NCBI GenBank assembly: GCA_044225365.1
Contig: JBGAIQ010000032.1
Coordinates: 1-59,403, forward strand
Source of the DNA: Planctomycetota bacterium
GTDB taxonomy: Bacteria; Planctomycetota; B15-G4; JADJEK01
Direction of reading: 5' to 3'
Length of the DNA: 59,403 nt
The position numbers and the translations under genes were made by a program. A model generated the notes under the pieces. That model was not told the DNA's origin. It ran no database searches and saw only the letters and a program-made list of their open reading frames with translations. Positions 19,649 to 32,677 of this stretch are shown here, one piece after another (position 1 is the stretch's first letter; every line of letters starts with the position of its first letter).

Positions 19649-21505
19649 ATGGACGCGCCGTCACGCCACAAACCGCTCCTTCCCTTCGCGCTGTTCCTCT
19701 GCGGCGCGATCGGCATCGCATTGCTCGGATTGAGGCTCGTGCGCGCGGAGCGGCAAGGCGCCGAGCGAAGCGCCCGGGAGCGGCTGCGCGCCGAAGCGGG
19801 CGAGAAGGCGCGGCAAATCTCCGACGCCGCCGCATTGCTGGAGAAGCTCGCGCGCAGCGGCGGCGCGGGATCGGCCACGATGGTGAAGGGAGTCTTCACG
19901 ATCCCTCGCGAGCCCGTCGACGCGATTCCCCTCGTCACGATTCCGGGCCGCGACTCCGAGGGGGATTTCCTGCTCGCCGAAGCCGAGAAGAACGAGCGGG
20001 AAGGACGAATGGACCGCGCACGCGGCGAGCTCGCGGCGGCGGCCGGCCCGTCGCGAGATCCCACGATCCGAACCGTGGCGCGCATCCGTCGCGCCGCGAT
20101 GCTGCGCCGCGTCGAAGATCCGCAGGCGGAAGACGCGGCTCGCGAAGCGCTCGCCGAGCTCGCGCAATCGAATCCGGAAGCCCGTTCCCGCAGCCGCGAG
20201 GGGCTCCTCCTGCGATCGCTGCACGAATCGATCCCGGAGGCACGAGACTCCCTGACCGCCGACGTGGCCGCGTTGGTCGGTGGTCCGGACGACGTCTTCG
20301 CCCGCGCGTTGCTGCGTGAACTGAGAGCGAACGCGGCCGACCGGGACGCGGAGCTCGCACTCATCGCTCGCTTGCGCGCCGCGGCTCTCGAGCCGCCGAT
20401 GGGCGAGAGCCGCGCGACGTTCGACGGCTACGAGATGATCGTCGCGGTGAGCGTCGATGCCGACACGCGGCGGTTCGCTCGCACCACGCTCGGCTCCTGG
20501 CTCGATTCGAGCGATGGGACCGGCCTCGTGACCGCGAATGCGCCGCTGCGAACGGATGTTCTCGCGGAGCGCGTGCCGATCGGCGCACTGCTGCCGGACC
20601 TGTCCGTCGAGGCGCGCGCCGGCTTCGAATCCGTGCTCGAGGAAGCCCGCGAACGGACGTGGACGGTCCTCTTTCTACTCGTCCTCGTCGCGCTCGCCGG
20701 CGTCTCGTCCTTCGTGATGTTCGCGCGCGCTGCGCGGCATGAGCGCGATGCCGCCGCGGCGAAGAGCGAGTTCGTGACCCGAGTCGGCCACGATCTCCGC
20801 ACGCCGCTCACGCTGATCCGCATGTACGCGGAGACCATCGCGGAAGGCCGCGTCGGCACCTCGGGCGAGACGCGCGAGTTCGCGGGCATCGTCGCCCGCG
20901 AGTCCGAGCGACTCACGCGCCTGGTCTCGACCGTGCTCGACTTCGCGCGCATCTCCGCGCCGATGGCCGCTGGTTCCACCGCGCGCCGGGTCGTCGATCT
21001 CGTCGAGCTCGTCGACGAGATCGTCATCGCGCATCGACCGCTCGTCGAGCGCGGCGGAATGCGGATCTCGTTCCTCGCGCCGCATACGACGAACGGCGCG
21101 TGTGCCGTCGCGGTCGACGCGGATGCGCTGCGCGGCGCGATCGGCAACCTGATCGAGAACGCGCTCGTGCACGCGGCCGACGGCGGCGCAATCGACCTCC
21201 AGGTGGAAGGCGCACGGGATCTCGTCGAGATCTCCGTGAGCGATCGCGGCCCGGGATTGCCCGAGCGGTCGTTCGAACGCGTTTTCGAGCGCTTCGCGCG
21301 CGGCGACGATGCGAAGGGCAAGGGCACGGGCCTCGGCCTCGCGTTGGTGCGAGAGGTCGCGCGGGCGCACGGCGGCGACGCGGATGCGCGAGCACGCGAG
21401 GGCGGCGGGCTCGTCGTCACGATCCGCCTGCCAAGGTTCACCGATTCCGACGCGAGCGCCCCGAGCGCCCCGAGCAATTCGAATCGCAACGGGAGCCTCT
21501 CGTGA
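19649..21505 (+). CDS. Membrane sensor histidine kinase
   Basis: Two TM helices, H-box GHDLRTPLT, N-box NLIENAL, G1 DRGPG, G2 GTGLGL. Confidence 0.95.
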   Translation: MDAPSRHKPLLPFALFLCGAIGIALLGLRLVRAERQGAERSARERLRAEAGEKARQISDAAALLEKLARSGGAGSATMVKGVFTIPREPVDAIPLVTIPGRDSEGDFLLAEAEKNEREGRMDRARGELAAAAGPSRDPTIRTVARIRRAAMLRRVEDPQAEDAAREALAELAQSNPEARSRSREGLLLRSLHESIPEARDSLTADVAALVGGPDDVFARALLRELRANAADRDAELALIARLRAAALEPPMGESRATFDGYEMIVAVSVDADTRRFARTTLGSWLDSSDGTGLVTANAPLRTDVLAERVPIGALLPDLSVEARAGFESVLEEARERTWTVLFLLVLVALAGVSSFVMFARAARHERDAAAAKSEFVTRVGHDLRTPLTLIRMYAETIAEGRVGTSGETREFAGIVARESERLTRLVSTVLDFARISAPMAAGSTARRVVDLVELVDEIVIAHRPLVERGGMRISFLAPHTTNGACAVAVDADALRGAIGNLIENALVHAADGGAIDLQVEGARDLVEISVSDRGPGLPERSFERVFERFARGDDAKGKGTGLGLALVREVARAHGGDADARAREGGGLVVTIRLPRFTDSDASAPSAPSNSNRNGSLS

Positions 21506-22221
21506 TGACCCGGCGCATCCTGCTCGTCGAGGACGATCCCGACCTGTCGCGCGGCGTGCGCTTCAATCTCGAGCACGAAGGTCACGCCGTCGTCGGCGCC
21601 GCGACGGCGAAGACCGCCCGCTCGCAGCCGATCGCGGACTTCGATCTCGTCGTCCTCGACCTCAATCTCCCCGACGGGGACGGTCTCGACCTGCTGCGCG
21701 ATTGGCGTTCGAGCGGCATCGCCACGCCCGTGCTCTGCCTCACGGCGCGAGCCCAGGAGGCCGACGTAGTGATGGGGCTCGGCCTCGGCGCGGACGACTA
21801 TCTGCGAAAACCCTTCGGCCTCGCCGAGCTGCTTGCGCGAGTCGGCGCGCTCCTGCGACGGCGTCGCGATGCCGCCGCCAGTACCACGGGAGACGGGCGC
21901 GTCCGGATCGGAGACGTCGTCCTCGATCGGAGCGCGCATCGACTGCTGCGCGGCGAGTTGGAGGAGACGCTCACGCCGATCGAGCTGCAGCTCCTCGAGT
22001 ATCTCCTCGCCGCGAACGGCAAGGCCGTCGACCGCGCCGTGCTGCTGAAGGACCTGTGGGGCGTGGACCAGGCGGCGTCGACTCGTACGCTCGACAACCA
22101 CGTGGCTCGCCTGCGCAAGAAGATCGAGCGCGATCCCGGCAATCCGCAGCACCTCGTCACCGTGCATGGCATCGGGTATCGGCTCGATCTCGTTTCGACA
22201 CGGAGCGGTACATCTTGGTGA
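21505..22221 (+). CDS. OmpR/PhoB-family response regulator
   Basis: ILLVEDD, LDLNLPDGDG, GADDYLRKPF, TRTLDNHVARLRKKIE, TVHGIGYR. TGATG overlap with the kinase stop. Confidence 0.96.
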   Translation: MTRRILLVEDDPDLSRGVRFNLEHEGHAVVGAATAKTARSQPIADFDLVVLDLNLPDGDGLDLLRDWRSSGIATPVLCLTARAQEADVVMGLGLGADDYLRKPFGLAELLARVGALLRRRRDAAASTTGDGRVRIGDVVLDRSAHRLLRGELEETLTPIELQLLEYLLAANGKAVDRAVLLKDLWGVDQAASTRTLDNHVARLRKKIERDPGNPQHLVTVHGIGYRLDLVSTRSGTSW

Positions 22222-22298
22222 CGACATCGGGACCGAATGCGGAGTCCGTGCGGCGTTCAATCGGCGCACGAAGACGCTCGACACGAAAGGACTCCTCG

Positions 22299-24851
22299 AT
22301 GCTCCCTTCTCGTTCCACACTCCTCTTCCTCTTCTCCCTCACCATCCCCGGGCTCGCCGCGGGCCAGGCTCCCGCTTCGTCGGCTGCGTCACCTGCGGCG
22401 AATGAAGCGTTCTACCGCGCCTACTATCTCGAGAGCGGCCTGCGCGATTTCGAGAGCGCGATCGCCGCGTACGCCGCGATCGCCGCCGACCCGAAGTCCG
22501 AGAAGGCCGTCGTCGTCGCGGCCGAGATCGGACGCGCGCGCTGTCTGCAGGCGCTCGGGAAGATCGACGACGCCAGGAAGCAGCTCGAAGCCGCGCTCCT
22601 CCTCGATCCGAACAACGCGGAGGCGAAGCGGCTGATCGATGCGAAGGCCAACGACGGCATCGACCCGGAATTGAGGGTTCGGCTCTCCGCTCTCGTCGCG
22701 AAGCTCGGTGGCGCGGAGCGCGAGCAGGCCGCGAGCGACTTGAAGAAGGTCGGCGATCTCAAGCTGCCCTTCCTCGACGCGGGACTGCGAAGCCGCGATG
22801 TCGCCGTCGTGGAGGGCTGTGCCAATGTGCTCGCCGAAGGTGATGAGGAGGCCTTCGCGATTCTCGCCCGCGCACTGCAGGACCCACGCGTCTTGTTCCA
22901 AGCTTCACTGGCATCGATCTTCTTCAAGCTTCCCCACTCGGCCGCGGCATTCTCGGTCTGCGAAGCCGCGCTCGAATCGCAAGAGGTCAAGGTTCGCGTC
23001 GCGGCGGTGCAGTGGACCTTGAGTCCTTCGACGAAGAAGATGGGAATCGACGCCGCGCGGCTCACGAAGTTCCTCTCGCGAGCCGTCGATGATTCCTCCA
23101 TGGAAGTGTCGCGCGCGCTCCGCGACTTCGGGCGGATCGATGATCCAGAAGTGATCGCGCCGATCGCGCCGCGGCTCGCCGCCATGCTCGAGAAGGTGGA
23201 TCCCGAATCGAAGAGGCAAGCGATCCAGAGCGTGCGAGTGGGCTCGAGCGCGGCTCTCGACTCGTTCCTCTGGAAGATGCTCGAGGATCCCGATGATCGG
23301 GTCCGTGAGTTCGCGGTGAACCAAGCGAGGCTGGCGGCCAAGAACAAGCAGTTGTCGGTCGCGGCCGCAATCGAGACACTCGTTCCCCGGCTCTCGGATT
23401 CGAGCGTCGCGGTTTCCAGTGTGGCGATCGGGGGCCTTAACGAGCTCCATGCGGATCTCGACGCGACGGGATTGGCAATGGCGCTCGATCTCTTCGACCG
23501 CAGGACTCGTGTCGAGAACTACGTCGATGGGAACTTGCTGTACCTCATCACCCACGCGAAGAGCGTGTCGGACTCCGACCTCGTCCGAGTCTGGAATCGG
23601 ATCCTCGAGCAACGCGATCGACTGGGAGACGACGTCACGCTCCAATCGCTCTATTCGTTTGCGTCGAACCTAGGCGAAGGCGACGCCAACGACGAGAATC
23701 GCCGGACGCAGTTCCTGCTCGCGCGGTTCGCGGAAGCGAAGGCAGAATTCGTCGAGGGCCTCGTCCTCAAGCTGTTCTCGAAAAACTACCAGTCCGACCC
23801 CCTCACGTCGGCGAAGACGGTGGCCGCCCTCCTCCACTCGCAGCACCCCACGATCCGCCGCGCCGCCTACCGTCGTCCGCCGGAGTCGGCTTCCGGGCAA
23901 GTCTTGTGGGAACCGTTCTCGGATCCGATCGTGATCGAGCACACGAACGAGGATCTCCTGGCTGTGGACCCCCTGATTTCGGGCAGCGCTCTTTATTTCG
24001 CCGATTGGCAAGCGGGACCTCAATTCGCGCCGTCCGTGACGAAGTGGATCGCCGACAAGCGATCTCTGAACGCTGCGCAGCTCGGTTTCGTCGCCCGCTG
24101 CATCGGTCGCGACGCCCTTCCGATTCTCCGTGAGGAGCTCCAGGGCAAGATCGACATCTGGAGCATCGCGTGCTTCCATCTGCTGCGGCTGACCGGAGAG
24201 GAATCGATCCCCGCCATCCTCGCGAGCCTGGGCAGCGACCCGGAGAGGCTGACTGCTTTGCTCGATAGGTTCTCTGGGCTGCTGCGAAGCGACAAACTCA
24301 TCGCCTTGCCGGCCGTCGAGAAGTTCATTTCGACGAGTCCCATCGAGGTATGGTCGAGCGCGATGTTGGTCCATCCTGCATTGCTGACCGAGGTCTTCCC
24401 GCCTCTCGTCACGCGCGCCCTCGATTCGGCCGATGCACAGGTGCGATCCCAGGGCTGCAGTCTCGCCGCGAACTGGCGACTCGAAGGAGTCGAGCCGCGG
24501 CTCGTCGTGCTCCTCGACGATCCCAATGCCGGCGTAGCGGCCGGCGCCGAGCGCGCGCTCGATGCGATCCGCGCCAAGCGCGAAGCCCGCACCGCCGCGA
24601 AGCTCGCGACCTCGTTCGATCGATCGAAGACGATCGACGAAGCGCGAGCGCTGCTCTCGAGCGACGATCCCGTGAAACGCCGCGGCGGCGCGCTCGCGCT
24701 CGGCGCGCTCGGCGACGTCGCCGCGCTGCCCGCTCTGCTGAAGCTCCTCGACGACAAGGACCCGCAGGTGCGCGAGGCCGCGCTCACCGCGATGTCGAAG
24801 CTCGACGGAAGCCCCCACGCGCCAAGCTCCCCTCCGACGAAAGACGGTTGA
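22299..24851 (+). CDS. Exported TPR plus HEAT-repeat protein
   Basis: RBS AAAGGA, signal peptide, N-terminal TPR, HEAT repeats (LEDPDDRVRE, LLDDPNAGVA, LLDDKDPQVREAA). Confidence 0.85.
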   Translation: MLPSRSTLLFLFSLTIPGLAAGQAPASSAASPAANEAFYRAYYLESGLRDFESAIAAYAAIAADPKSEKAVVVAAEIGRARCLQALGKIDDARKQLEAALLLDPNNAEAKRLIDAKANDGIDPELRVRLSALVAKLGGAEREQAASDLKKVGDLKLPFLDAGLRSRDVAVVEGCANVLAEGDEEAFAILARALQDPRVLFQASLASIFFKLPHSAAAFSVCEAALESQEVKVRVAAVQWTLSPSTKKMGIDAARLTKFLSRAVDDSSMEVSRALRDFGRIDDPEVIAPIAPRLAAMLEKVDPESKRQAIQSVRVGSSAALDSFLWKMLEDPDDRVREFAVNQARLAAKNKQLSVAAAIETLVPRLSDSSVAVSSVAIGGLNELHADLDATGLAMALDLFDRRTRVENYVDGNLLYLITHAKSVSDSDLVRVWNRILEQRDRLGDDVTLQSLYSFASNLGEGDANDENRRTQFLLARFAEAKAEFVEGLVLKLFSKNYQSDPLTSAKTVAALLHSQHPTIRRAAYRRPPESASGQVLWEPFSDPIVIEHTNEDLLAVDPLISGSALYFADWQAGPQFAPSVTKWIADKRSLNAAQLGFVARCIGRDALPILREELQGKIDIWSIACFHLLRLTGEESIPAILASLGSDPERLTALLDRFSGLLRSDKLIALPAVEKFISTSPIEVWSSAMLVHPALLTEVFPPLVTRALDSADAQVRSQGCSLAANWRLEGVEPRLVVLLDDPNAGVAAGAERALDAIRAKREARTAAKLATSFDRSKTIDEARALLSSDDPVKRRGGALALGALGDVAALPALLKLLDDKDPQVREAALTAMSKLDGSPHAPSSPPTKDG

Positions 24852-26586: not shown

Positions 26587-27714
26587 ATGAATTCACAAAG
26601 ATCCCCGCGACGCGCGCTCGCGCGTACGGCATCGATGGCAGCGCTCCTGCTTCTCTCCGCACCCGCCTTCGGCGCCATCAGCACGACGGTCTCGCCGCCG
26701 CGCGCTCGAACCCTGACGCTCGCAACGAGCGCCGACGGGCCTCACTCCCCCACGGGATTGCGCGGGGTCTACTACTCGTTCGTGCTGAACGAAGAGGGAA
26801 ACTACGACTGCGTCGGCTGGTTCGAGGTGGGAGAGGAAGAGGGCGGCGAACTCCCGATCACCGGCGGCACGGGTGGCGGTGGATACATCATCCCGGATTC
26901 CCTCGACCCGAGTCACTACGAGGCGCACTTCGACGCTCTCGCGCCGTACACGATCGATCTCGACTTCGGTTCGGCGAGCGGCTGTTTCGAATTCAGCTTC
27001 GGCGGCCAGAGCGGCAAGCTCGTGCCGTACGGCGAGCCCGGCGACTCCATTCCTCCTCCTCTCCCCGACCCCGGCCCCGGATGGGGACATCACGGACGGG
27101 GAATGACGTTCTGGGTCGACGTCACCGGATTCCCGTGGGTGTACGACGTCGACTACATCCAGTTCTCTCGGATCAGCCTCACGTTCGAGATGACGGATGG
27201 ATCGAGTCCCCCCCAGGTGAGTCCCGCCTCGAGCGACCCCGTTCCCGCGACGGGCAACGGCGGATTCAAGACCCATGACCCGGTGACGGGGCAAGGCATG
27301 GAACTCATGGACGGTTCCACGATGTACGTCGATTCGGGCTCTCCCGGTGAACCCCGCTACATCGCGGCGGGCGGCTGGGGGACCACCAATGGCGGCGTGG
27401 TCTCGATGATCGACGAGCCAGGCTATCCCGAGGAAGATCTGAAGGCCGAGGTCGCGGACCTCCAGGCTGGCCTGCCTGCGCCGTGGCACATCACGTCGGC
27501 GTCGATGTACATCACGTTCTCGACCTACCTCATCGTCAACGACAACATCGTCTATGTCTGGCACACGCGCTACAGCTCGTTCCTCAACGCCGATACCGGC
27601 GAGTTCTACGAGACCTGTGAGCTCATCGACGAAGGCCCGGCCTCCTCGATGACGCCGAGCGAGAGCGCGGCGCTCAGCAACTTCCAAGCAGGGGGATTCT
27701 CCGGCGCGCCCTGA
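26587..27714 (+). CDS. Hypothetical exported acidic Gly/Pro-rich protein
   Basis: Signal-like ALLLLSAPAFG and host-like codon usage. No family recognised. Confidence 0.75.
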   Translation: MNSQRSPRRALARTASMAALLLLSAPAFGAISTTVSPPRARTLTLATSADGPHSPTGLRGVYYSFVLNEEGNYDCVGWFEVGEEEGGELPITGGTGGGGYIIPDSLDPSHYEAHFDALAPYTIDLDFGSASGCFEFSFGGQSGKLVPYGEPGDSIPPPLPDPGPGWGHHGRGMTFWVDVTGFPWVYDVDYIQFSRISLTFEMTDGSSPPQVSPASSDPVPATGNGGFKTHDPVTGQGMELMDGSTMYVDSGSPGEPRYIAAGGWGTTNGGVVSMIDEPGYPEEDLKAEVADLQAGLPAPWHITSASMYITFSTYLIVNDNIVYVWHTRYSSFLNADTGEFYETCELIDEGPASSMTPSESAALSNFQAGGFSGAP

Positions 27715-27840
27715 TCGTCGAGCGATCGGCGCACGCTGTTCGGCCGCGGGAGGCATCGCCCTTCCGCGGCCGATTCGTTTTCGATGTCTCCGCTAACTCA
27801 CAAGTCGGCGCAAGACTCTCTTCGGGGAAAGGAGACTCCC

Positions 27841-28545
27841 ATGTCGATCCCACGAAGATTCCTCCCACTCGTCGTCATCGCCTTCGCGCTGTTGTCGGGT
27901 GGCGGTGCGACGGCCGTATTCGCGCTGCGCGGCCCGCCGACGCTGTGCTTTCCATTCGAGATCGGAGATGCCAAGACGCTGCCCGATGCGGGCGAACGCG
28001 ACAAGCTCGGCGACACGCCGCTTCAAAAGGCCGCGATCGAAGTGCTCGATGCGAATCGCGACGCCGTCGTCCACATGGACACGCTGCGACGCGCATTCTT
28101 CATCGCGAAGGACCCGGCCGAGCGACTCTCGCTCCTCTCCGCGCTCGAGCGCCGCGTGCTCGAGCACGAGACCACCGAGCCCGCGCACTCCGCCCACGAC
28201 CTCGCGCTCTCGTGGTTCGATCTTGGCTACTGGCGGCGAGCGATCGATCAGGGGATGAACTACGAGCGGGGCTCGGCATTCCGATACGTCGACAAGGCGC
28301 TCCGCATCGACCCGGACGATGCGGGTCTTCGCCTCGGCGCGATGAATTGCGACTTCGACGACTCCGCACGACGCGAGCTCTTCTACGCCGATATCGTCGC
28401 CGCGCATCGTCTACTGTCCGACGAGACGACGCTGACCGCGCGCAATTTCAAAGCGATCGTCGAGCGCTTCGCACCCGAACTCATGAAAGACGGCTACGCG
28501 CATCTTGGTGAGCGCGCAGCCGTCCATGTCTCGAAGCGAGAGTAG
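27841..28545 (+). CDS. Hypothetical exported helical protein
   Basis: RBS AAGGAG before ATG 27841, hydrophobic N-terminus, GPPTLCFPFEIG motif. Confidence 0.75.
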   Translation: MSIPRRFLPLVVIAFALLSGGGATAVFALRGPPTLCFPFEIGDAKTLPDAGERDKLGDTPLQKAAIEVLDANRDAVVHMDTLRRAFFIAKDPAERLSLLSALERRVLEHETTEPAHSAHDLALSWFDLGYWRRAIDQGMNYERGSAFRYVDKALRIDPDDAGLRLGAMNCDFDDSARRELFYADIVAAHRLLSDETTLTARNFKAIVERFAPELMKDGYAHLGERAAVHVSKRE

Positions 28546-28553
28546 GGGAAGAA

Positions 28554-28641
28554 GGATGCCACGCTGGAGCGTGGCGGTCCGCATGCCACGCTGGAGCGTG
28601 GCGGTCCGGTCGGAGCGCCGGGCTCTGCCCGGCATATGGGT
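28554..28641. repeat. REP/BIME-like cluster 3
   Basis: Two copies of ATGCCACGCTGGAGCGTGGCGGTCC plus GCCGGGCTCTGCCCGGCATATGGGT, between convergent genes. Confidence 0.9.
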
Positions 28642-28649
28642 GATGTCGA

Positions 28650-30287
28650 TCAGGGTCCCGGCGGCGGCTGGAGCGCTGGCGGGAAGAGCACGTTCGAGAG
28701 CAGCGATTGGTCCGGCGTCTGCGCGCGATAGACCACGCACTGCATCGCGAACGTCGAGATCCCGAGATCGGGCGGGATGAAGATCGGGAGCGAGGTCTTG
28801 CCGTTGCCGTCCGCCGGCAGCGCAGTGAGCAAGAAGAACGGATACGCGAGCGAGATGCAGTTGGTCTGCGCGAGGCAGTAGCCGAGCGCCTTCGGACCGC
28901 CGAGGCTCACGAGGTAGTACACCGTCTCACCCGGCGCCGCGCCCTGGAAGTCGAAGCTCGCCGTCTTGCCGAGATAGAGCTGCGAAGCCGAAAGACCCGG
29001 GACGCAGTAGTCGATGATCCCGTTCTGATCGACGTCCGGCACCGCGCCCTGCGTGATCTCGCACCCGTCGGGGATCTGATTGCCGTTGGCATCGGGCCCG
29101 ACGGGACTGTCGGGGACGATGCGGAACAACTCGCCATCGACCGAGTCGAAGAAGTACATCTCGCCGTGCGTGTCGACGCCGAACGACGTGATCTTCTTGA
29201 TATCGCGACCGGGCGGGGCGAGCTCGGCGGTGCGCTCGGTGAATTCCGTCATCGTCGTGCCGTCATAGCGGAAGGACCAGATTCGCGCCTTGTTGTAGTC
29301 CGCGAAGAAGTAGGTGCCCTGCAGCCACGGCATCGCGCATCCGCGATAGACGAACCCGCCAATCACCGCGGTCCCGAATCCGCCGTGCGGATAGACGTGG
29401 ATCGGAGCCGTCACGTTGGGATTGCCGATGCATCCGAGCTGGTTCGTCGGCAGGTCGCCTTCGAGGCAGTGCCATCCGAAGTTCTGTCCCGACGTACCAC
29501 CCTTGATGAAATCGATCTCCTCGCGATTCTCCTGACCGACGTCGCCGATGTAGAGATCACCGGTCTGGGAGTCGATCGAGAAGCGCCACGGGTTGCGCAG
29601 ACCGTAGGCGAAGATCTCGGGCTTCGCACCGGGAGTGTTGATGAACGGATTCGTCGGCGGGATCGCGTACGGCGTTCCGCCATCGACGTCGATGCGGATG
29701 ATCTTCCCTTTCAACGTGTCGAGGTGCGATGCGTAGTCGAACGGGTCGTAGGCGCCGCCGCCGTCTCCGATCGACATGTACAAGTATCCGTCCGGGCCGA
29801 ACTGAATCATGCCCGAATTGTGCTGCAGGAACGGCTTCGGCTCCCGCAGGATCAGTACGCCGCTGTTCGAGTCCGCGAGTTCGGGATTCGACGTGGAGCG
29901 CGTATACCGCCACAGGGCCACGTTTCCGAACACGTCGGAGAAGCACACGTAGACGTAGCCGTTCTGCGCGTAGTTCGGATGGAAGGCCATCGACAAGAGG
30001 CCCTGCTCGCTCAGGGTCGACATGAACGGGAAGAGATTGAGGAAGTTGTGGTTCTTCCAATCGGTCTCCGGCAAGTTCATCGTGTGGATGTAGCCGGAAT
30101 TCTTCTCGAGGATGAAGATGCGATTGGGCGCCGTCGGATCCGCGATCATGAACGTCGGGAAGTCGATCCCCGTCGCCACGAGTTGCGAAGTCATCTTCGG
30201 CGGATTGGTCGCGAGTACATTCGAAGCGGAACCGATCCCCACCACAACGATCGCGGCGCTGGCCGCGAGCTTGCGAACGTCGAACAT
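28650..30287 (-). CDS. PQQ-dependent glucose/sorbosone dehydrogenase-family beta-propeller with C-terminal extension
   Basis: EQGLLSMAFHP, HNSGMIQFGPDGYLY, GDGG, YGLRNPWRFS, GDVGQ..EEID, ITSFGVD. Signal peptide present. DANGNQIPDGC/DVDQNGIIDYC repeats. Confidence 0.92.
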   Translation of the reverse strand: MFDVRKLAASAAIVVVGIGSASNVLATNPPKMTSQLVATGIDFPTFMIADPTAPNRIFILEKNSGYIHTMNLPETDWKNHNFLNLFPFMSTLSEQGLLSMAFHPNYAQNGYVYVCFSDVFGNVALWRYTRSTSNPELADSNSGVLILREPKPFLQHNSGMIQFGPDGYLYMSIGDGGGAYDPFDYASHLDTLKGKIIRIDVDGGTPYAIPPTNPFINTPGAKPEIFAYGLRNPWRFSIDSQTGDLYIGDVGQENREEIDFIKGGTSGQNFGWHCLEGDLPTNQLGCIGNPNVTAPIHVYPHGGFGTAVIGGFVYRGCAMPWLQGTYFFADYNKARIWSFRYDGTTMTEFTERTAELAPPGRDIKKITSFGVDTHGEMYFFDSVDGELFRIVPDSPVGPDANGNQIPDGCEITQGAVPDVDQNGIIDYCVPGLSASQLYLGKTASFDFQGAAPGETVYYLVSLGGPKALGYCLAQTNCISLAYPFFLLTALPADGNGKTSLPIFIPPDLGISTFAMQCVVYRAQTPDQSLLSNVLFPPALQPPPGP

Positions 30288-30634
30288 TGATTGCTCCAAG
30301 GTGCGAGACTGCGAATCACGTTCGGGTGTGATTCGCTTTCTTCGATTTGGGAACTCGATCTGGTCGGACAAGCGTCGCCCGGCAACGAACCGCTACTCCG
30401 TCGAATTCGCCGAAACATCCTGACACGGTGAGTAAACCTCATACCGCGCCGATGCGCAAGTGCGCCGCCGCAGGGGTGGGTCGCACTCCGGAAGGTGGCC
30501 CGCGAAGGGCGGCCTCGTGCGAGGTCGGCGGAGTCGTTCGGGACGGACTCTCGCGGCGACACTTCGCGGACGAAACCCGGTTCGACCGTTTCGCGAACGG
30601 CGCATCGAAAACGCGAGAATTCGCCGAATCTCGC

Positions 30635-30663
30635 TTGAGTCGTCGAAATCGCGTAGTTACTGT
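30635..30663 (+). promoter_or_regulatory. Putative sigma70-type promoter of the histone gene
   Basis: TTGAGT-N17-TACTGT, followed by an AT-rich leader and RBS GGAGG at 30709-30713. Confidence 0.6.
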
Positions 30664-30720
30664 GCGGGCCTGTTTCGTTTCCCAATTCAAACTTTTGGCT
30701 CGTTCGCTGGAGGGCTCACG

Positions 30721-30927
30721 ATGGCAGCTAAGAAGGCCGGTGGCAACAAGAAGCGCGACACTCTCGTCGTTGGTAGCAAGTGCAAGGAGTACGTCCGCTC
30801 CAAGAACCTGATGGCGGCGGGCGACCTGATCGACGCGATCAGCGAGAAGGTCTACGCGATGCTGGACGCCGCGGGCAACCGCGTCAGCGCGAACAAGCGC
30901 TCGACGATGCGTCCGCACGACCTTTGA
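30721..30927 (+). CDS. Bacterial histone-fold protein (short-alpha3, Bd0055/face-to-face type) with basic N-terminal tail
   Basis: MAAKKAGGNKKRDTLVVGSKCKEYVRSKNLMAAGDLIDAISEKVYAMLDAAGNRVSANKRSTMRPHDL. LVVxSKxK alpha1 and A..N.RxTxxxxDL end are typical of prokaryotic histones. Strong RBS. Confidence 0.9.
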   Translation: MAAKKAGGNKKRDTLVVGSKCKEYVRSKNLMAAGDLIDAISEKVYAMLDAAGNRVSANKRSTMRPHDL

Positions 30928-30985
30928 TTCCTGAATCAGATGTCGACCGCGCGGCTCGCGAACTCAGGTCGCTTCACGAAACCGA

Positions 30986-32677
30986 TCAGGATCGGAACAG
31001 ATCGCTCATGTTCCTGCCGAGAAGACGCCCGGCCACGAAGAGCGAATACAGCAGCACGAGCGACCCCACGACGCCCATGGCGCTGGCGATCTGCGGGCCG
31101 TTCTTCAGATCGCCGGCGAGGATGTAGATCGACTTCGCGATGGGATACGACTCCTTCGTCGGCGCGAGAATGAGGCTCTCCGAAACTTCGAGAAGGGCGA
31201 AGGAGAAGGCCAGGATGCCGCCCGCGAGGAGATGGCCGGCGACGAGGGGGAGCGTGATGCGTCGCGCCACGACGGTGTTCGATGCCCCGAATCCGCGCGC
31301 GGCTTCCTCGAGCGCGACCGGGAGCTGGCGGAAGCCCGCGTCGGCCGAGCGCACGAGATAGGGCAAGCGACGCAGCGCGTAGCCGAGCACGAGCAGGAGT
31401 CCGGGATGCGCGAGCACGTCGAGCGGCGATCCGCTGAAGGCGTACACGTAGCCGAAGGCGAGCACGATTCCGGGGAGTGCGAGCGGCAACATCGAACAGA
31501 CGTCGAGGAGACTCGCAAAGTTCCCTCCGCGGCGAACGACGAGCCAGGCGATCGCGCCGCCCAGCGCGATGTCGATCAGCGTCGAGCACGAGGCGTAGAC
31601 GAGCGAATTCTTCACTCCGAGGAATGCGATCTCGTCGGTGGCGACGTGAGCGTAGTGCGCGAGCGTCCAGTGCTCGGGCAGGATCGTGAAGAACCAACTC
31701 TTGGCGAGCGAGAGAACGAGCACGGCCGCATGCGGCATCAGCGTGAGTGCCGAGAGCAGGCACAGTGCGACGTAGAGGAGCGCGCGCTGCTTCGTCGTGA
31801 TCGGTCGCGGCCGCGCGACGACGATTCCCTTGGCGGCGGACGACGGCGACGTGCGCTTCACCGCGGCGCGTGCGAGCAGGAACGACCCGAGCGTGGCGAC
31901 GATCACGAAGAGCACGAGCGCGTAGCCGACGGGATCGCGACTCGCTTCGGAAGCGCGCTCGAAGATCTGGATCGGTACGAGCATGCGCGCATCGAACACG
32001 ATCGGCGCACCGAGATCGGTGAGCGCAAAGATGAAGACGATGACGGCGCCCGCGAAGTATCCGGGAAGGACGAGCGGGAGTCCGATGCGCGACAGGCGCA
32101 GGAAGCGGGATGCGCCCGCGCTCTCCGCCGCCTCGAACAGCGTGGGGTCGATGTTGGCGAGCGTCGCCTGCAGGTTGACGAAGAGGATCGGATAGAGATG
32201 GAGCGTGCCGACGAGCACGACGCCGATCAGCGGATTCGCGCCGAGGAAGTCGATCGGCTCGCTCACGATTCCGAGCTTCAGGAGCAGGAGATTGAGCGAT
32301 CCGAATCGCGCGAACACCTGCCGAAATCCGACGGAGCCCACGATCGGAGGCAGGACGAGACCGGCGAGCATGAACGTCTGGAACACCGCCTTGCCCGCGA
32401 AGCGATAGGCGTGGAACACCCACGCGAGCGGCAGTGCGATGAGACTCGCGAGCACGGTGATCGTGACGGCGACGAGGAACGAGTTGCGGACCGACTCGAC
32501 GAAGACCGAGTTGTTGACCGCGAGCCGGAACGCATCGAGAGTGAACCGGCCATCGACGATGAACGCGCCGCGAACGACGTGCGCGATCGGATAGAACAGG
32601 AAGAGAGCGAAGAAGAGAGCGGCGATCGCAGCGAACGCCGTCGGCACGTAGGACCTGCTCGTCGCGGCGGGCGTCAC
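30986..32677 (-). CDS. ABC transporter permease, FbpB/AfuB (Fe3+/thiamine) type
   Basis: Two EAA motifs (LFEAAESAGAS, LEEAARGFGAS), LPGIVLAFG, many TM helices. Confidence 0.93.
   Translation of the reverse strand: MTPAATSRSYVPTAFAAIAALFFALFLFYPIAHVVRGAFIVDGRFTLDAFRLAVNNSVFVESVRNSFLVAVTITVLASLIALPLAWVFHAYRFAGKAVFQTFMLAGLVLPPIVGSVGFRQVFARFGSLNLLLLKLGIVSEPIDFLGANPLIGVVLVGTLHLYPILFVNLQATLANIDPTLFEAAESAGASRFLRLSRIGLPLVLPGYFAGAVIVFIFALTDLGAPIVFDARMLVPIQIFERASEASRDPVGYALVLFVIVATLGSFLLARAAVKRTSPSSAAKGIVVARPRPITTKQRALLYVALCLLSALTLMPHAAVLVLSLAKSWFFTILPEHWTLAHYAHVATDEIAFLGVKNSLVYASCSTLIDIALGGAIAWLVVRRGGNFASLLDVCSMLPLALPGIVLAFGYVYAFSGSPLDVLAHPGLLLVLGYALRRLPYLVRSADAGFRQLPVALEEAARGFGASNTVVARRITLPLVAGHLLAGGILAFSFALLEVSESLILAPTKESYPIAKSIYILAGDLKNGPQIASAMGVVGSLVLLYSLFVAGRLLGRNMSDLFRS

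What the first reader, a model, noticed from the sequence alone, without database searches (positions are those of the whole stretch)
30721..30927. Stand-alone bacterial histone with a Lys/Gly-rich N-terminal tail
Seen: a 68-aa ORF hidden inside a longer track ORF, with RBS GGAGG, its own promoter, a divergent upstream neighbour and a convergent downstream one, so it is monocistronic. Known: LVVxSKxK...A..N.RxTxxxxDL with a truncated alpha3 matches prokaryotic histones such as Bdellovibrio Bd0055 and the face-to-face class. Seen: the fold is preceded by MAAKKAGGNKKR, a basic, probably disordered tail similar in composition to eukaryotic histone tails. Inference: an abundant chromatin protein whose tail lysines could be modified, giving tail-regulated histone chromatin in a bacterium.
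Basis: partly seen in the sequence, partly recalled or inferred. Interest (0 to 1): 0.85.

Follow-up and report, generated by a model that had tools for sequence, protein, structure and literature searches.

The report
Planctomycete face-to-face histone with basic tail
This small gene encodes a genuine bacterial histone of the already described "face-to-face" type, whose short lysine-rich tail is a known, variable feature of that family, so it is a good but ordinary example.

Summary
Window 30721-30927 (+) is a conserved, single-copy, monocistronic 68-codon gene with GGAGG 7 nt before the ATG.

It is a histone of the alpha3-truncated face-to-face (FtF) class. Its closest solved relative is Leptospira perolatii HLp, PDB 9QT0 (phmmer E 3.2e-16, family profile E 1.4e-23). 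Bd0055/HBb is far weaker, at profile E about 1e-6.

The FtF signature R54-x3-N58-x-R60-x-T62-x4-D67 is invariant in 41 of 41 homologues, and the chain ends one residue after D67. A four-copy model scores 0.91 against 0.00 for the best control, with the dimer-dimer contacts on exactly those residues.

The 12-residue tail is real. Conservation starts at Met1, no other start codon precedes M31, the model is low-confidence there, and the tail carries +5 of the protein's net +7 charge.

Neither the protein nor the tail is new. FtF histones in Planctomycetota, with common and mostly positive tails, are already published (PMC11390915, PMC10627809). Here 183 of 401 sampled genomes of the phylum carry the gene, and tails in relatives are basic, absent or acidic.

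No tool gave evidence on tail modification or abundance. New member of a known kind.

The parts
30613..30625 (+). Conserved, relatively AT-rich block GCGAGAATTCGCC, 9 nt upstream of the -35-like hexamer. It could be an UP-element-like sequence or a regulator site; its function is unknown.
   Evidence: Recognisable in 6-7 of the 9 aligned orthologous upstream regions. In the genome there are 39 sites with at most 1 mismatch, against 3 for the reversed control, but most lie in coding-looking sequence.
30635..30640 (+). -35-like hexamer TTGAGT
   Evidence: TTG is in register in 9 of 9 orthologous upstream regions. The consensus scanner did not call it.
30658..30663 (+). -10-like hexamer TACTGT, 17 nt after the -35-like hexamer
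   Evidence: TAnnnT in 9 of 9 regions, with a 17-nt spacer in 8 and 18 nt in 1. It matches TATAAT at only 3 of 6 positions, so the scanner missed it.
30709..30713 (+). Shine-Dalgarno GGAGG, 7 nt before the ATG
   Evidence: Read from the sequence. A 5-of-5 SD-type match is present in all 9 closest loci and aligns among them.
30721..30756 (+). Codons 1-12: basic N-terminal tail MAAKKAGGNKKR, net +5
   Evidence: M1 and A2 are invariant and A3, K4, K5 are at least 90% conserved in 41 sequences, with a variable-length linker after them. pLDDT is below 50 for residues 5-8 and 10-14. Residues 1-12 are not named in the modelled interfaces. Charge.
30757..30924 (+). Codons 13-68: alpha3-truncated histone fold (alpha1 residues 17-27, alpha2 36-56, one-turn alpha3 65-67). 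Includes the FtF tetramer residues R54 and N58 and the RxTxxxxD motif R60/T62/D67.
   Evidence: HLp 9qt0_A phmmer E 3.2e-16. Profile E 1.4e-23. Foldseek E 6e-4. Helices. Invariant columns. Four-copy model.
30925..30927 (+). Stop codon TGA. No convincing intrinsic terminator lies in the 58-bp gap to the convergent gene.
   Evidence: The fold of 30915-31000 has z-score -0.44.

Best explanation
The gene encodes a bacterial face-to-face (FtF) histone, a member of the alpha3-truncated histone family and an orthologue-level relative of Leptospira HLp.

Shown here:
- It has histone-fold sequence and model similarity.
- The complete FtF signature is present.
- The gene is single-copy and monocistronic, with a conserved start, SD and promoter-like hexamers.
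- It persists across about half of the sampled genomes of its phylum.

Inferred by homology to HLp and HTkC:
- Two handshake dimers close into a torus-shaped homotetramer. R54 and N58 of one dimer would pair with R60, H66/D67 and the C-terminal end of the other.
- DNA (about 60 bp in HLp) is bound without sequence specificity around the rim. The contacts would be the alpha1 N-terminus (G18-S19-K20, K22, R26) and the L1/L2 loops (G34, S61-T62).

Inferred from the sequence:
- Four flexible tails leave the torus next to the alpha1 N-termini, that is, at the DNA path.
- Each tail carries +5 of the monomer's net +7. The tails would therefore act mainly as electrostatic arms that raise DNA affinity and neutralise phosphate charge.
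- The protein would work as a nucleoid-associated protein alongside the genome's single HU.
For: Sequence similarity to solved histones:
- phmmer against PDB gives HLp 9qt0_A at E 3.2e-16 over residues 8-67.
- The family profile gives HLp 1.4e-23, HBb/Bd0055 (8cmp, 8fvx) 1e-6 and 1.6e-6, HTkC (9f2c) 7.2e-6, and NF-YB about 1.3-1.6.

Signature and DNA-contact residues:
- R54, N58, R60, S61, T62, R64 and D67 are invariant in 41 of 41 sequences, as are G18, S19, K20, K22 and G34.
- Through the alignment these map onto HLp tetramer residues R49/N53/R55, the RD clamp R55-D62, and DNA contacts A13-S14-K15, K17, G29 and T56-T57 (PMC12701072, sections 7 and 9).
- They also fit the FtF definition R-x3-N-x-R-x-T-x4-D in PMC11390915, section 7.

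Structure models:
- The monomer model has helices 17-27, 36-56 and 65-67. Foldseek's top hits are 9qt0_A (E 6e-4, probability 1.00) and then HBb 9f0e_A (E 0.14).
- The four-copy model scores 0.91, with the best of 3 controls at 0.00. That mark was reached by 20 of 30 solved same-chain pairs and 1 of 23 single chains.
- The three runs agree in at least 88% of contacts, and the partner pLDDT is at least 87.
- One partner is contacted over residues 13-68 (the handshake). Another is contacted over 53-54, 57-58, 60, 64 and 66-67.

Gene reality and start:
- 41 homologues, 154 species loci, 183 of 401 phylum genomes and 7 of 7 in its own family, and 1141 representative clusters at E up to 0.001.
- Upstream in-frame translations of relatives diverge until the Met.

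Tail:
- Charge split.
- pLDDT is below 50 for residues 5-8 and 10-14.
- All 9 Lys codons are AAG in a 65% GC genome, so the tail is not a by-product of AT-rich DNA.
Against: - No experiment exists on this protein or on any Planctomycetota FtF histone. The literature searches turned up none.
- Pfam and NCBIfam give 0 hits for the protein even at E up to 10. PF00808 and PF09123 find nothing in the genome.
- The monomer model is only moderate: pLDDT 70, and rmsd 8.3 A to 9qt0_A with TM 0.55/0.65.
- HLp and HTkC tetramers are already solved, so the complex score may reflect memory of them. The calibration also used two copies, not four.
- HLp binds and wraps DNA with a tail that is not basic in its aligned part. 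A basic tail is therefore not needed for the core function.
- 26 of 76 relatives have almost no tail and 10 of 76 have a neutral or acidic one.
- HU is present, so this protein need not be the main chromatin protein.
Confidence: 0.8

Rival explanations
1. The tail lysines (K4, K5, K10, K11), or the processed N-terminus, are reversibly modified, and this tunes DNA wrapping. That would give a eukaryote-like, tail-regulated histone chromatin in a bacterium.
For: - M1 and A2 are invariant, and A3, K4 and K5 are at least 90% conserved in 41 sequences, while the linker after them varies in length. This is position-specific conservation beyond mere composition.
- Synonymous third-position changes in codons 2 and 3 leave the residues unchanged.
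- The tail is modelled with low confidence and lies outside the modelled interfaces.
- Modification of other bacterial nucleoid proteins is in print. I saw this as search listings only: PMC5931751 and PMC12449154.
Against: - No writer, eraser or reader domain appears among the 13 flanking ORFs scanned.
- The five-residue N-terminal cap occurs in only 9 of 76 species loci, and these are the 9 closest.
- Other Planctomycetota-labelled loci have almost no tail or an acidic one.
- Ala and Lys codons just after the start are also favoured for efficient translation in highly expressed bacterial genes. This point is recalled and was not tested.
- No proteomic data could be reached.
Confidence: 0.12
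2. It acts like Bd0055/HBb. A free dimer bends or coats DNA, rather than a closed tetramer wrapping it.
For: - It shares the alpha3-truncated fold.
- The profile hits 8cmp and 8fvx at about 1e-6.
- Foldseek's second hit is HBb 9f0e_A, at E 0.14.
- HTkC R45A behaves like a DNA-bending dimer, so the dimer mode is latent in the fold (passages of 10.64898/2025.12.06.692711).
Against: - HLp is about 17 orders of magnitude better than HBb in the profile search.
- HBb has Ser and Asp at the positions of the invariant R54 and N58.
- The four-copy model places the dimer-dimer contacts on residues 53-54, 57-58, 60, 64 and 66-67.
Confidence: 0.07
3. It is a real FtF histone but a minor or condition-specific nucleoid protein, as HTkC is in Thermococcus. 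HU would do the bulk packaging.
For: - The genome has one HU gene, at C93:7985-8248 (94.6 bits). The Leptospira species in which the FtF histone is dominant lack HU.
- HTkC is expressed 34 times lower than HTkA.
- The histone gene was not found in 218 of the 401 sampled phylum genomes, so it is dispensable at phylum scale.
Against: - The SD is strong and optimally spaced, and the promoter-like hexamers are conserved in 9 of 9 orthologous loci.
- The gene is present in 7 of 7 genomes of its own family and in 11 of 11 and 3 of 4 in the two sister families.
- It is single-copy.
- None of this measures abundance.
Confidence: 0.3
4. It is not a gene, or the true start lies downstream so that there is no tail.
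For: - The frame is open for 155 codons, and an antisense 159-aa ORF overlaps it. Both are typical mechanical ORFs of high-GC DNA.
- Pfam and NCBIfam are silent.
Against: - Conservation begins exactly at M1, whereas the upstream in-frame translation differs in every relative.
- The SD lies 7 nt before M1.
- The next ATG, GTG or TTG in frame is M31, inside loop L1, and starting there would delete alpha1.
Confidence: 0.02

Closest known systems
HLp, the face-to-face histone of Leptospira perolatii (PDB 9QT0, 9QT1, 9QT2; PMC12701072)
   Same: - Alignable over residues 8-67 (E 3.2e-16) and 50% identical over the 56 columns Foldseek aligned.
- Same length class and the same one-turn alpha3.
- Same tetramer residues: R49/N53/R55 correspond to R54/N58/R60.
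- Same RD clamp: R55-D62 corresponds to R60-D67.
- Same DNA-contact positions: S14-K15, K17, G29 and T57 are identical, while K21 is R26 and T56 is S61 here.
   Different: - HLp's N-terminus before the fold is 7 residues, disordered in the crystal, and not basic in its aligned part. Here it is 12 residues with +5.
- HLp's host has no HU; this genome has one.
- hlp lies next to smc and map; this gene lies between transporter and dehydrogenase genes.
- Substitutions at contact positions: A13 to G18, T27 to A32, S52 to A57, T61 to H66, and F63 to L68.
HTkC, the archaeal face-to-face histone of Thermococcus kodakarensis (PDB 9F2C; PMC11390915 and bioRxiv 10.64898/2025.12.06.692711)
   Same: - Toroidal tetramer class.
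- The conserved Arg, equivalent to R54, bridges to the opposing C-terminus.
- Truncated alpha3.
- Profile E 7.2e-6.
   Different: - HTkC is archaeal.
- Archaeal FtF histones generally lack tails.
- HTkC replaces the Asp of RxTxxxxD with His, whereas D67 is kept here.
- Sequence similarity is much lower.
HBb / Bd0055 of Bdellovibrio bacteriovorus (PDB 8CMP, 8FVX, 9F0E), the bacterial dimer histone class
   Same: - Alpha3-truncated singlet histone.
- LVVxSKVK alpha1 start and the RxT...D loop.
- Profile E about 1e-6.
   Different: - It is strictly dimeric and bends or coats DNA.
- It has Ser and Asp at the R54 and N58 positions.
- It has no basic tail in the aligned chain.
Basic N-terminal tails of eukaryotic and Asgard histones
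   Same: Short, Lys-rich N-terminal extension that leaves the fold near the DNA path and is predicted to be disordered.
   Different: - Only 12 residues.
- Not homologous.
- Variable, absent or acidic in close relatives.
- No modification machinery or marks are shown.
- The published view is that such tails are easily gained and lost (PMC10919886, section 9 passage).
Lys/Ala-rich tails of other bacterial nucleoid proteins, such as mycobacterial HupB/MDP1
   Same: A low-complexity basic extension on a small DNA-packaging protein. This is the analogy behind my electrostatic-arm reading.
   Different: - The fold is different (HU), and the tail is C-terminal and much longer.
- I saw these papers only as search listings (PMC5974015) and as one cited title in a reference list.

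Membership tests
Face-to-face (FtF) histones, alpha3-truncated histone family (Schwab 2024; HLp, HTkC) | Histone fold: alpha1-L1-alpha2-L2-alpha3, singlet, no other domain | tested here: met
   Helices 17-27, 36-56 and 65-67. Foldseek top hits are HLp and HBb. The profile hits only histone-fold chains below E 1e-5.
Face-to-face (FtF) histones, alpha3-truncated histone family (Schwab 2024; HLp, HTkC) | Alpha3 truncated to 3-4 residues, with the chain ending just after the Asp | tested here: met
   D67-L68-stop. Model helix 65-67.
Face-to-face (FtF) histones, alpha3-truncated histone family (Schwab 2024; HLp, HTkC) | RxTxxxxD motif (RD clamp plus the L2 Thr) | tested here: met
   R60, T62 and D67 are invariant in 41 of 41 sequences.
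Face-to-face (FtF) histones, alpha3-truncated histone family (Schwab 2024; HLp, HTkC) | Dimer-dimer residues: an Arg six residues and an Asn two residues before the R of RxT (HLp R49 and N53; D4GZE0 R41 and N45) | tested here: met
   R54 and N58 are invariant in 41 of 41 sequences. The mapping comes from the alignment and the papers' text.
Face-to-face (FtF) histones, alpha3-truncated histone family (Schwab 2024; HLp, HTkC) | Closed toroidal homotetramer | tested here: met
   By prediction only. Score 0.91 against a best control of 0.00, with second-dimer contacts at 53-54, 57-58, 60, 64 and 66-67. The pass may come from memory of the solved HLp and HTkC tetramers. The torus shape itself was not inspected.
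Face-to-face (FtF) histones, alpha3-truncated histone family (Schwab 2024; HLp, HTkC) | Conserved solvent-exposed Lys on alpha1 for DNA binding | tested here: met
   K20 and K22 are invariant. They correspond to HLp K15 and K17, which contact DNA.
Face-to-face (FtF) histones, alpha3-truncated histone family (Schwab 2024; HLp, HTkC) | Non-specific DNA binding and wrapping of about 50-60 bp | not testable with these tools
   Needs EMSA, MNase or a structure. Known only for HLp and HTkC.
Bacterial dimer histones (HBb/Bd0055 class) | No FtF tetramer residues; strictly dimeric | tested here: not met
   This protein has R54 and N58 where HBb has Ser and Asp. The four-copy model supports a tetramer.
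Pfam DUF1931 (PF09123, pseudodimeric histones) | Match to the family model above its cut-off; doublet fold | tested here: not met
   0 Pfam hits at E up to 10. No PF09123 match in the genome at E up to 1. The protein is a singlet. The name on 9qt0 is the depositors' label.
Pfam CBFD_NFYB_HMF (PF00808, nucleosomal-type histone fold) | Match to the family model above its cut-off | tested here: not met
   0 hits. There is only weak profile similarity to NF-YB chains, E 1.3-1.6, over alpha2-L2.
Modifiable, eukaryote-like histone tail (functional class, not a homology family) | Disordered, basic N-terminal extension | tested here: met
   pLDDT is below 50 for residues 5-8 and 10-14. Charge +5 in 12 residues.
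Modifiable, eukaryote-like histone tail (functional class, not a homology family) | Position-specific conservation of target lysines across the family | tested here: inconclusive
   K4 and K5 are at least 90% conserved in the 41 closest homologues. The same N-terminal cap is found in only 9 of 76 species loci, and tails are short in 26 and non-basic in 10.
Modifiable, eukaryote-like histone tail (functional class, not a homology family) | Actual modifications and dedicated writers, erasers or readers | not testable with these tools
   No such domain appears in the 13 flanking ORFs scanned. A genome-wide search for acetyltransferases or deacetylases was not run, and these would not be diagnostic. 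No proteomics was available.

The most novel reading that the evidence does not exclude
In this Phycisphaerae-like clade the tail has a fixed architecture. Its N-terminal cap (Met-Ala-Ala-Lys-Lys) has M1 and A2 invariant and A3, K4 and K5 at least 90% conserved. A Lys-Arg pair sits next to the fold. Between them is a freely expanding Gly/Ala/Lys linker.

The boldest reading not excluded is that the cap is a recognition or modification site. Candidates are Met removal followed by N-terminal or Lys acetylation or methylation. Such a site would switch the four arms of the tetramer on and off DNA, giving a simple histone-tail code that evolved independently in bacteria.
Probability: 0.1. Interest if true: 0.8.

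Novelty: new member of a known kind. Interest (0 to 1): 0.3.

Why it matters
Bacterial histones were recognised only recently. The only two characterised structurally and functionally are HBb and HLp (PMC12701072 discussion), and none of these is from Planctomycetota.

This locus is a clean, well-conserved planctomycete example with three useful properties:
- it carries a strongly basic tail;
- it coexists with HU;
- Pfam and NCBIfam do not recognise it, so such genes are filed as hypothetical proteins.

It would be a reasonable candidate for testing what basic tails add to an FtF tetramer, for example by comparing the full-length protein with a version lacking residues 1-12. It could also show how histone and HU share a bacterial chromosome. 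It does not open a new category.

Tried and rejected
- Pfam and NCBIfam scans of the protein gave 0 families at E up to 10. PF09123 and PF00808 found no match in the genome. The family can be placed only through PDB sequences and the literature.
- Promoter and terminator scan: 0 promoter-like sites. The 2 terminator-like sites are not placed to end this gene, and shuffles give a mean of 1.0. The fold of 30915-31000 has z-score -0.44, so there is no hairpin terminator.
- Expression: no RNA holder was listed for window 29800-31800. Read laying was therefore not used. This says nothing about expression.
- Upstream 13-mer: I asked whether it marks a regulon. There are 39 sites against 3 for the control, but their contexts are mostly coding-looking. 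I dropped it as evidence for a shared promoter element.
- Neighbourhood as a clue to tail modification: nothing relevant in the 13 flanking ORFs.
- Paralogues: a search for a second histone in the genome found only the gene itself.
- Supplements are closed. Supplementary Figs 13, 19 and 20 of PMC11390915 (tails of bacterial FtF histones) and Supplementary Figs 10-13 of PMC10627809 (Planctomycetota histones) may already show this clade's tail motif. I could not see them.
Full report
**What is in the sequence**

Window 30721-30927 (+) translates to a 68-residue protein, kept as P0001. It starts with ATG and ends with TGA. It lies in frame inside a mechanical 155-codon GTG ORF at 30460..30927, and an antisense 159-codon ORF overlaps it. 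Both are usual in 65% GC DNA.

GGAGG lies at 30709-30713, 7 nt before the ATG.

The upstream gene, 28650..30371 (-), is a glucose/sorbosone dehydrogenase (PF07995, E 5.5e-39) and is divergent. The downstream gene, 30986..32677 (-), is an ABC permease (PF00528) and is convergent. The gene is therefore alone on its strand.

The wider neighbourhood holds a HEAT-repeat protein, an amino-acid permease, an ABC ATPase, a solute-binding protein, a rhodanese-domain ORF and a GGDEF protein. Nothing there is chromatin-related or modifies lysines.

**Is it a real gene, and is the start right?**

A word-indexed search found 41 proteins of 62-82 residues, 41 of 41 candidates at E up to 0.01. This count includes the window's own protein. 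Where they carry a name, it is a hypothetical protein of Planctomycetota MAGs.

In their alignment M1 and A2 are invariant and A3, K4 and K5 are at least 90% conserved. A linker of variable length follows, and then the fold.

In 80 species loci the in-frame translation upstream of the Met is different in every lineage, so conservation begins at the Met. No other ATG, GTG or TTG lies in frame before M31, which is inside the fold. The tail is therefore part of the protein.

The nine closest loci all have a full SD-type match before the same start.

Their upstream DNA aligns. TTGnnn, a 17-nt spacer (18 nt in one sequence) and TAnnnT are in register in 9 of 9 (window 30635-30640 and 30658-30663). 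A GCGAGAATTCGCC block (30613-30625) precedes them in most. The simple scanner had called no promoter, so 'own promoter' rests on conservation alone.

Synteny is partly kept. A divergent amino-acid permease lies directly upstream in L003, L005-L008, L010 and L077. A convergent ABC permease lies downstream in L004, L008, L009 and L012. In the window, extra genes (26587-30371) sit between the permease and the histone gene.

**What family is it?**

Pfam and NCBIfam give nothing, and PF00808 and PF09123 find nothing anywhere in the genome.

Against PDB sequences the single protein hits 9qt0_A at E 3.2e-16 over residues 8-67, and 9f2c_A at E 0.08. The family profile gives:
- 9qt0_A: 1.4e-23
- 8cmp_A: 9.9e-7
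- 8fvx_A: 1.6e-6
- 9f2c_A: 7.2e-6
- NF-YB chains: about 1.3-1.6

9QT0 is HLp of Leptospira perolatii. It is a bacterial face-to-face histone that forms a stable tetramer and wraps about 60 bp (PMC12701072: abstract, sections 6, 7, 9 and 13 read). 9F2C is the archaeal FtF histone HTkC (PMC11390915, section 7 read). 8CMP and 8FVX are Bd0055/HBb, the dimer class.

FtF histones are defined by the toroidal tetramer and by conserved R...N.R.T....D at the C-terminal end. Here R54-x3-N58-x-R60-x-T62-x4-D67 is present and invariant in 41 of 41 sequences. The chain ends at L68, one residue after the Asp, as in HLp.

Through the alignment (window residue = HLp residue + 5), the following HLp features are kept:
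- tetramer residues R49, N53 and R55
- the RD clamp R55-D62
- DNA contacts S14-K15, K17, G29 and T57

Three further DNA contacts are changed conservatively: A13 to G18, K21 to R26, and T56 to S61. T27 is A32 here.

HBb has Ser and Asp at the R54 and N58 positions.

**Models**

The AlphaFold2 monomer, built with the 41-row alignment, has mean pLDDT 70.2. It shows helices at 17-27, 36-56 and 65-67, and pLDDT is below 50 for residues 5-8 and 10-14.

Foldseek against the PDB ranks 9qt0_A first (E 6e-4, probability 1.00, TM 0.55/0.65, rmsd 8.3 A). HBb 9f0e_A follows (E 0.14), and then the MHF and CENP-S/X histone-fold chains at E above 0.8. An isolated histone monomer is not expected to model well.

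Four copies folded together score 0.91, 0.91 and 0.90, and the best of 3 controls scores 0.00.
- That mark was reached by 20 of 30 proteins solved as same-chain pairs and by 1 of 23 solved as single chains.
- The runs agree in at least 88% of contacts, and the partner pLDDT is at least 87.
- The scored copy touches one copy over residues 13-68 (the handshake). It touches another over 53-54, 57-58, 60, 64 and 66-67, which are the positions homologous to HLp's dimer-dimer interface.
- Residues 1-12 are not named in any interface.

Two caveats apply, both stated by the tool. A like complex is already solved, so the pass may come from memory. The calibration also used two copies, not four.

**Distribution**

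The genome is 6.53 Mb in 103 contigs, 94% complete. It has one copy of the gene and one HU gene at C93:7985-8248 (94.6 bits).

In a sample of 401 genomes of the same phylum, 183 have a match at E up to 1e-5. Among high-quality genomes the figure is 121 of 244. The gene is present in 7 of 7 genomes of its own family, and in 11 of 11 and 3 of 4 genomes of the two sister families.

In one-genome-per-species contigs, 154 loci encode a relative. By their titles, the best 80 come from Planctomycetota (many Phycisphaerae), Myxococcota (Nannocystis, Polyangia), Patescibacteria, Melainabacteria, some Gammaproteobacteria MAGs and one Nanoarchaeota MAG.

Among 1.84 billion cluster representatives, 1141 match the profile at E up to 0.001 and 231 at E up to 1e-10.

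This agrees with print. FtF histones are reported in Spirochaetota, Planctomycetota, Bdellovibrionota and Myxococcota. [quoted passage not shown]

**The tail**

The protein has a net charge of +7, of which +5 sits in residues 1-12 and +2 in the fold. The pI is 9.9 for the whole protein and 8.9 for the fold alone.

All nine Lys codons are AAG and GC3 is 88%. The Lys-rich tail is therefore not the AT-rich read-through by-product proposed for some tails (PMC10919886, section 9 passage).

For relatives I took the ATG nearest the fold as the start, which gives minimal tails, and counted from the printed output by hand. Of 80 loci, 4 were not assignable: two are cut by contig ends, one has no upstream ATG, and one is masked. 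The other 76 divide as follows:

| Tail type | Loci (of 76) |
|---|---|
| Basic: at least 8 residues, net charge at least +3 (9 to 48 residues) | 39 |
| Short: 7 residues or fewer | 26 |
| Long (at least 8 residues) but neutral or acidic | 10 |
| Intermediate (11 residues, +2) | 1 |

Only the 9 closest loci share the window's five-residue N-terminal cap.

Loci labelled Planctomycetota occur in all three main classes. CPR and Melainabacteria loci are in the short class, and most Myxococcota loci are basic.

**How it most likely works**

By homology, two handshake dimers close into a torus through R54, N58, R60 and the C-terminus. DNA runs around the rim over the alpha1 N-termini and the L1/L2 loops, as shown for HLp and, in a preprint, for HTkC.

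The tails emerge directly before the alpha1 N-terminus (G18-S19-K20), which is a DNA-contact site in HLp. I therefore infer that the four +5 arms lie on or between DNA segments and add non-specific affinity and charge neutralisation.

The core does not require this. HLp works with a tail that is not basic in its aligned part, and many relatives have almost no tail. I read the basic tail as a lineage-specific tuning of affinity.

Whether the protein is the major nucleoid protein is open. The strong SD and conserved promoter-like hexamers point to good expression, but HU coexists and no expression data could be reached.

**Novelty**

Three full-text searches found no paper on an experimentally studied Planctomycetota histone. 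Four papers hold 'Planctomycetota', 'histone' and 'face-to-face' together; three were listed, and they are Schwab et al. and its preprint, and Hu et al..

The class, its phyletic range and its basic tails are in print. The finding is therefore a new member of a known kind.

What is specific here is the fixed N-terminal cap and the juxta-fold Lys-Arg around a variable linker in one clade. This leaves a small chance of a recognition or modification site. Nothing I could run supports or excludes that.

Noticed in passing
window 30613-30663: The orthologous upstream regions of 9 species share a promoter-like TTGnnn-17-TAnnnT. Most also share a GCGAGAATTCGCC block 9 nt upstream of it. The 13-mer has 39 genomic sites with at most 1 mismatch, against 3 for the reversed control. 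Most of these look coding, so the excess may be codon or peptide bias.
   Followed up: partly
P0044, P0045, P0051 and other two-stretch hits: Many of the best profile hits are doublets of about 118-128 residues, with two tandem FtF-type folds in one chain. These are fused pseudodimers of this family.
   Followed up: no
P0042, P0043, P0058: Some doublet relatives begin with a hydrophobic stretch that looks like a signal peptide. That would be odd for a DNA-packaging protein. It could be a wrong start call, or an exported histone-fold protein.
   Followed up: no
L078 (Myxococcota MAG), upstream of 3923: One relative carries a 48-residue Lys/Ala/Pro/Thr-rich repetitive tail, nearly as long as the fold itself. 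It is reminiscent of linker-histone or HupB-type tails.
   Followed up: no
window 21309-24851 (+): A 1180-aa HEAT-repeat protein about 6 kb upstream has a weak Cnd1 (condensin non-SMC subunit) Pfam match, E 3.7e-7 and 30.8 bits against a cut-off of 26.4. It is probably generic HEAT-repeat similarity.
   Followed up: no
window 26587-30371: In several relatives the amino-acid permease gene lies directly upstream of the histone gene. In the window, about 3.8 kb lies between them, holding ORFs without Pfam matches and the dehydrogenase gene. This suggests an insertion or rearrangement.
   Followed up: partly
G000:C93:7985-8248: The genome also encodes one HU-family protein (PF00216, 94.6 bits), so histone and HU coexist. 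This differs from the Leptospira species in which the FtF histone was studied.
   Followed up: partly
L019, L020, L049, L054, L066: Close relatives of the histone occur in MAGs labelled Gammaproteobacteria and Nanoarchaeota. This could be patchy horizontal spread or a binning error.
   Followed up: no
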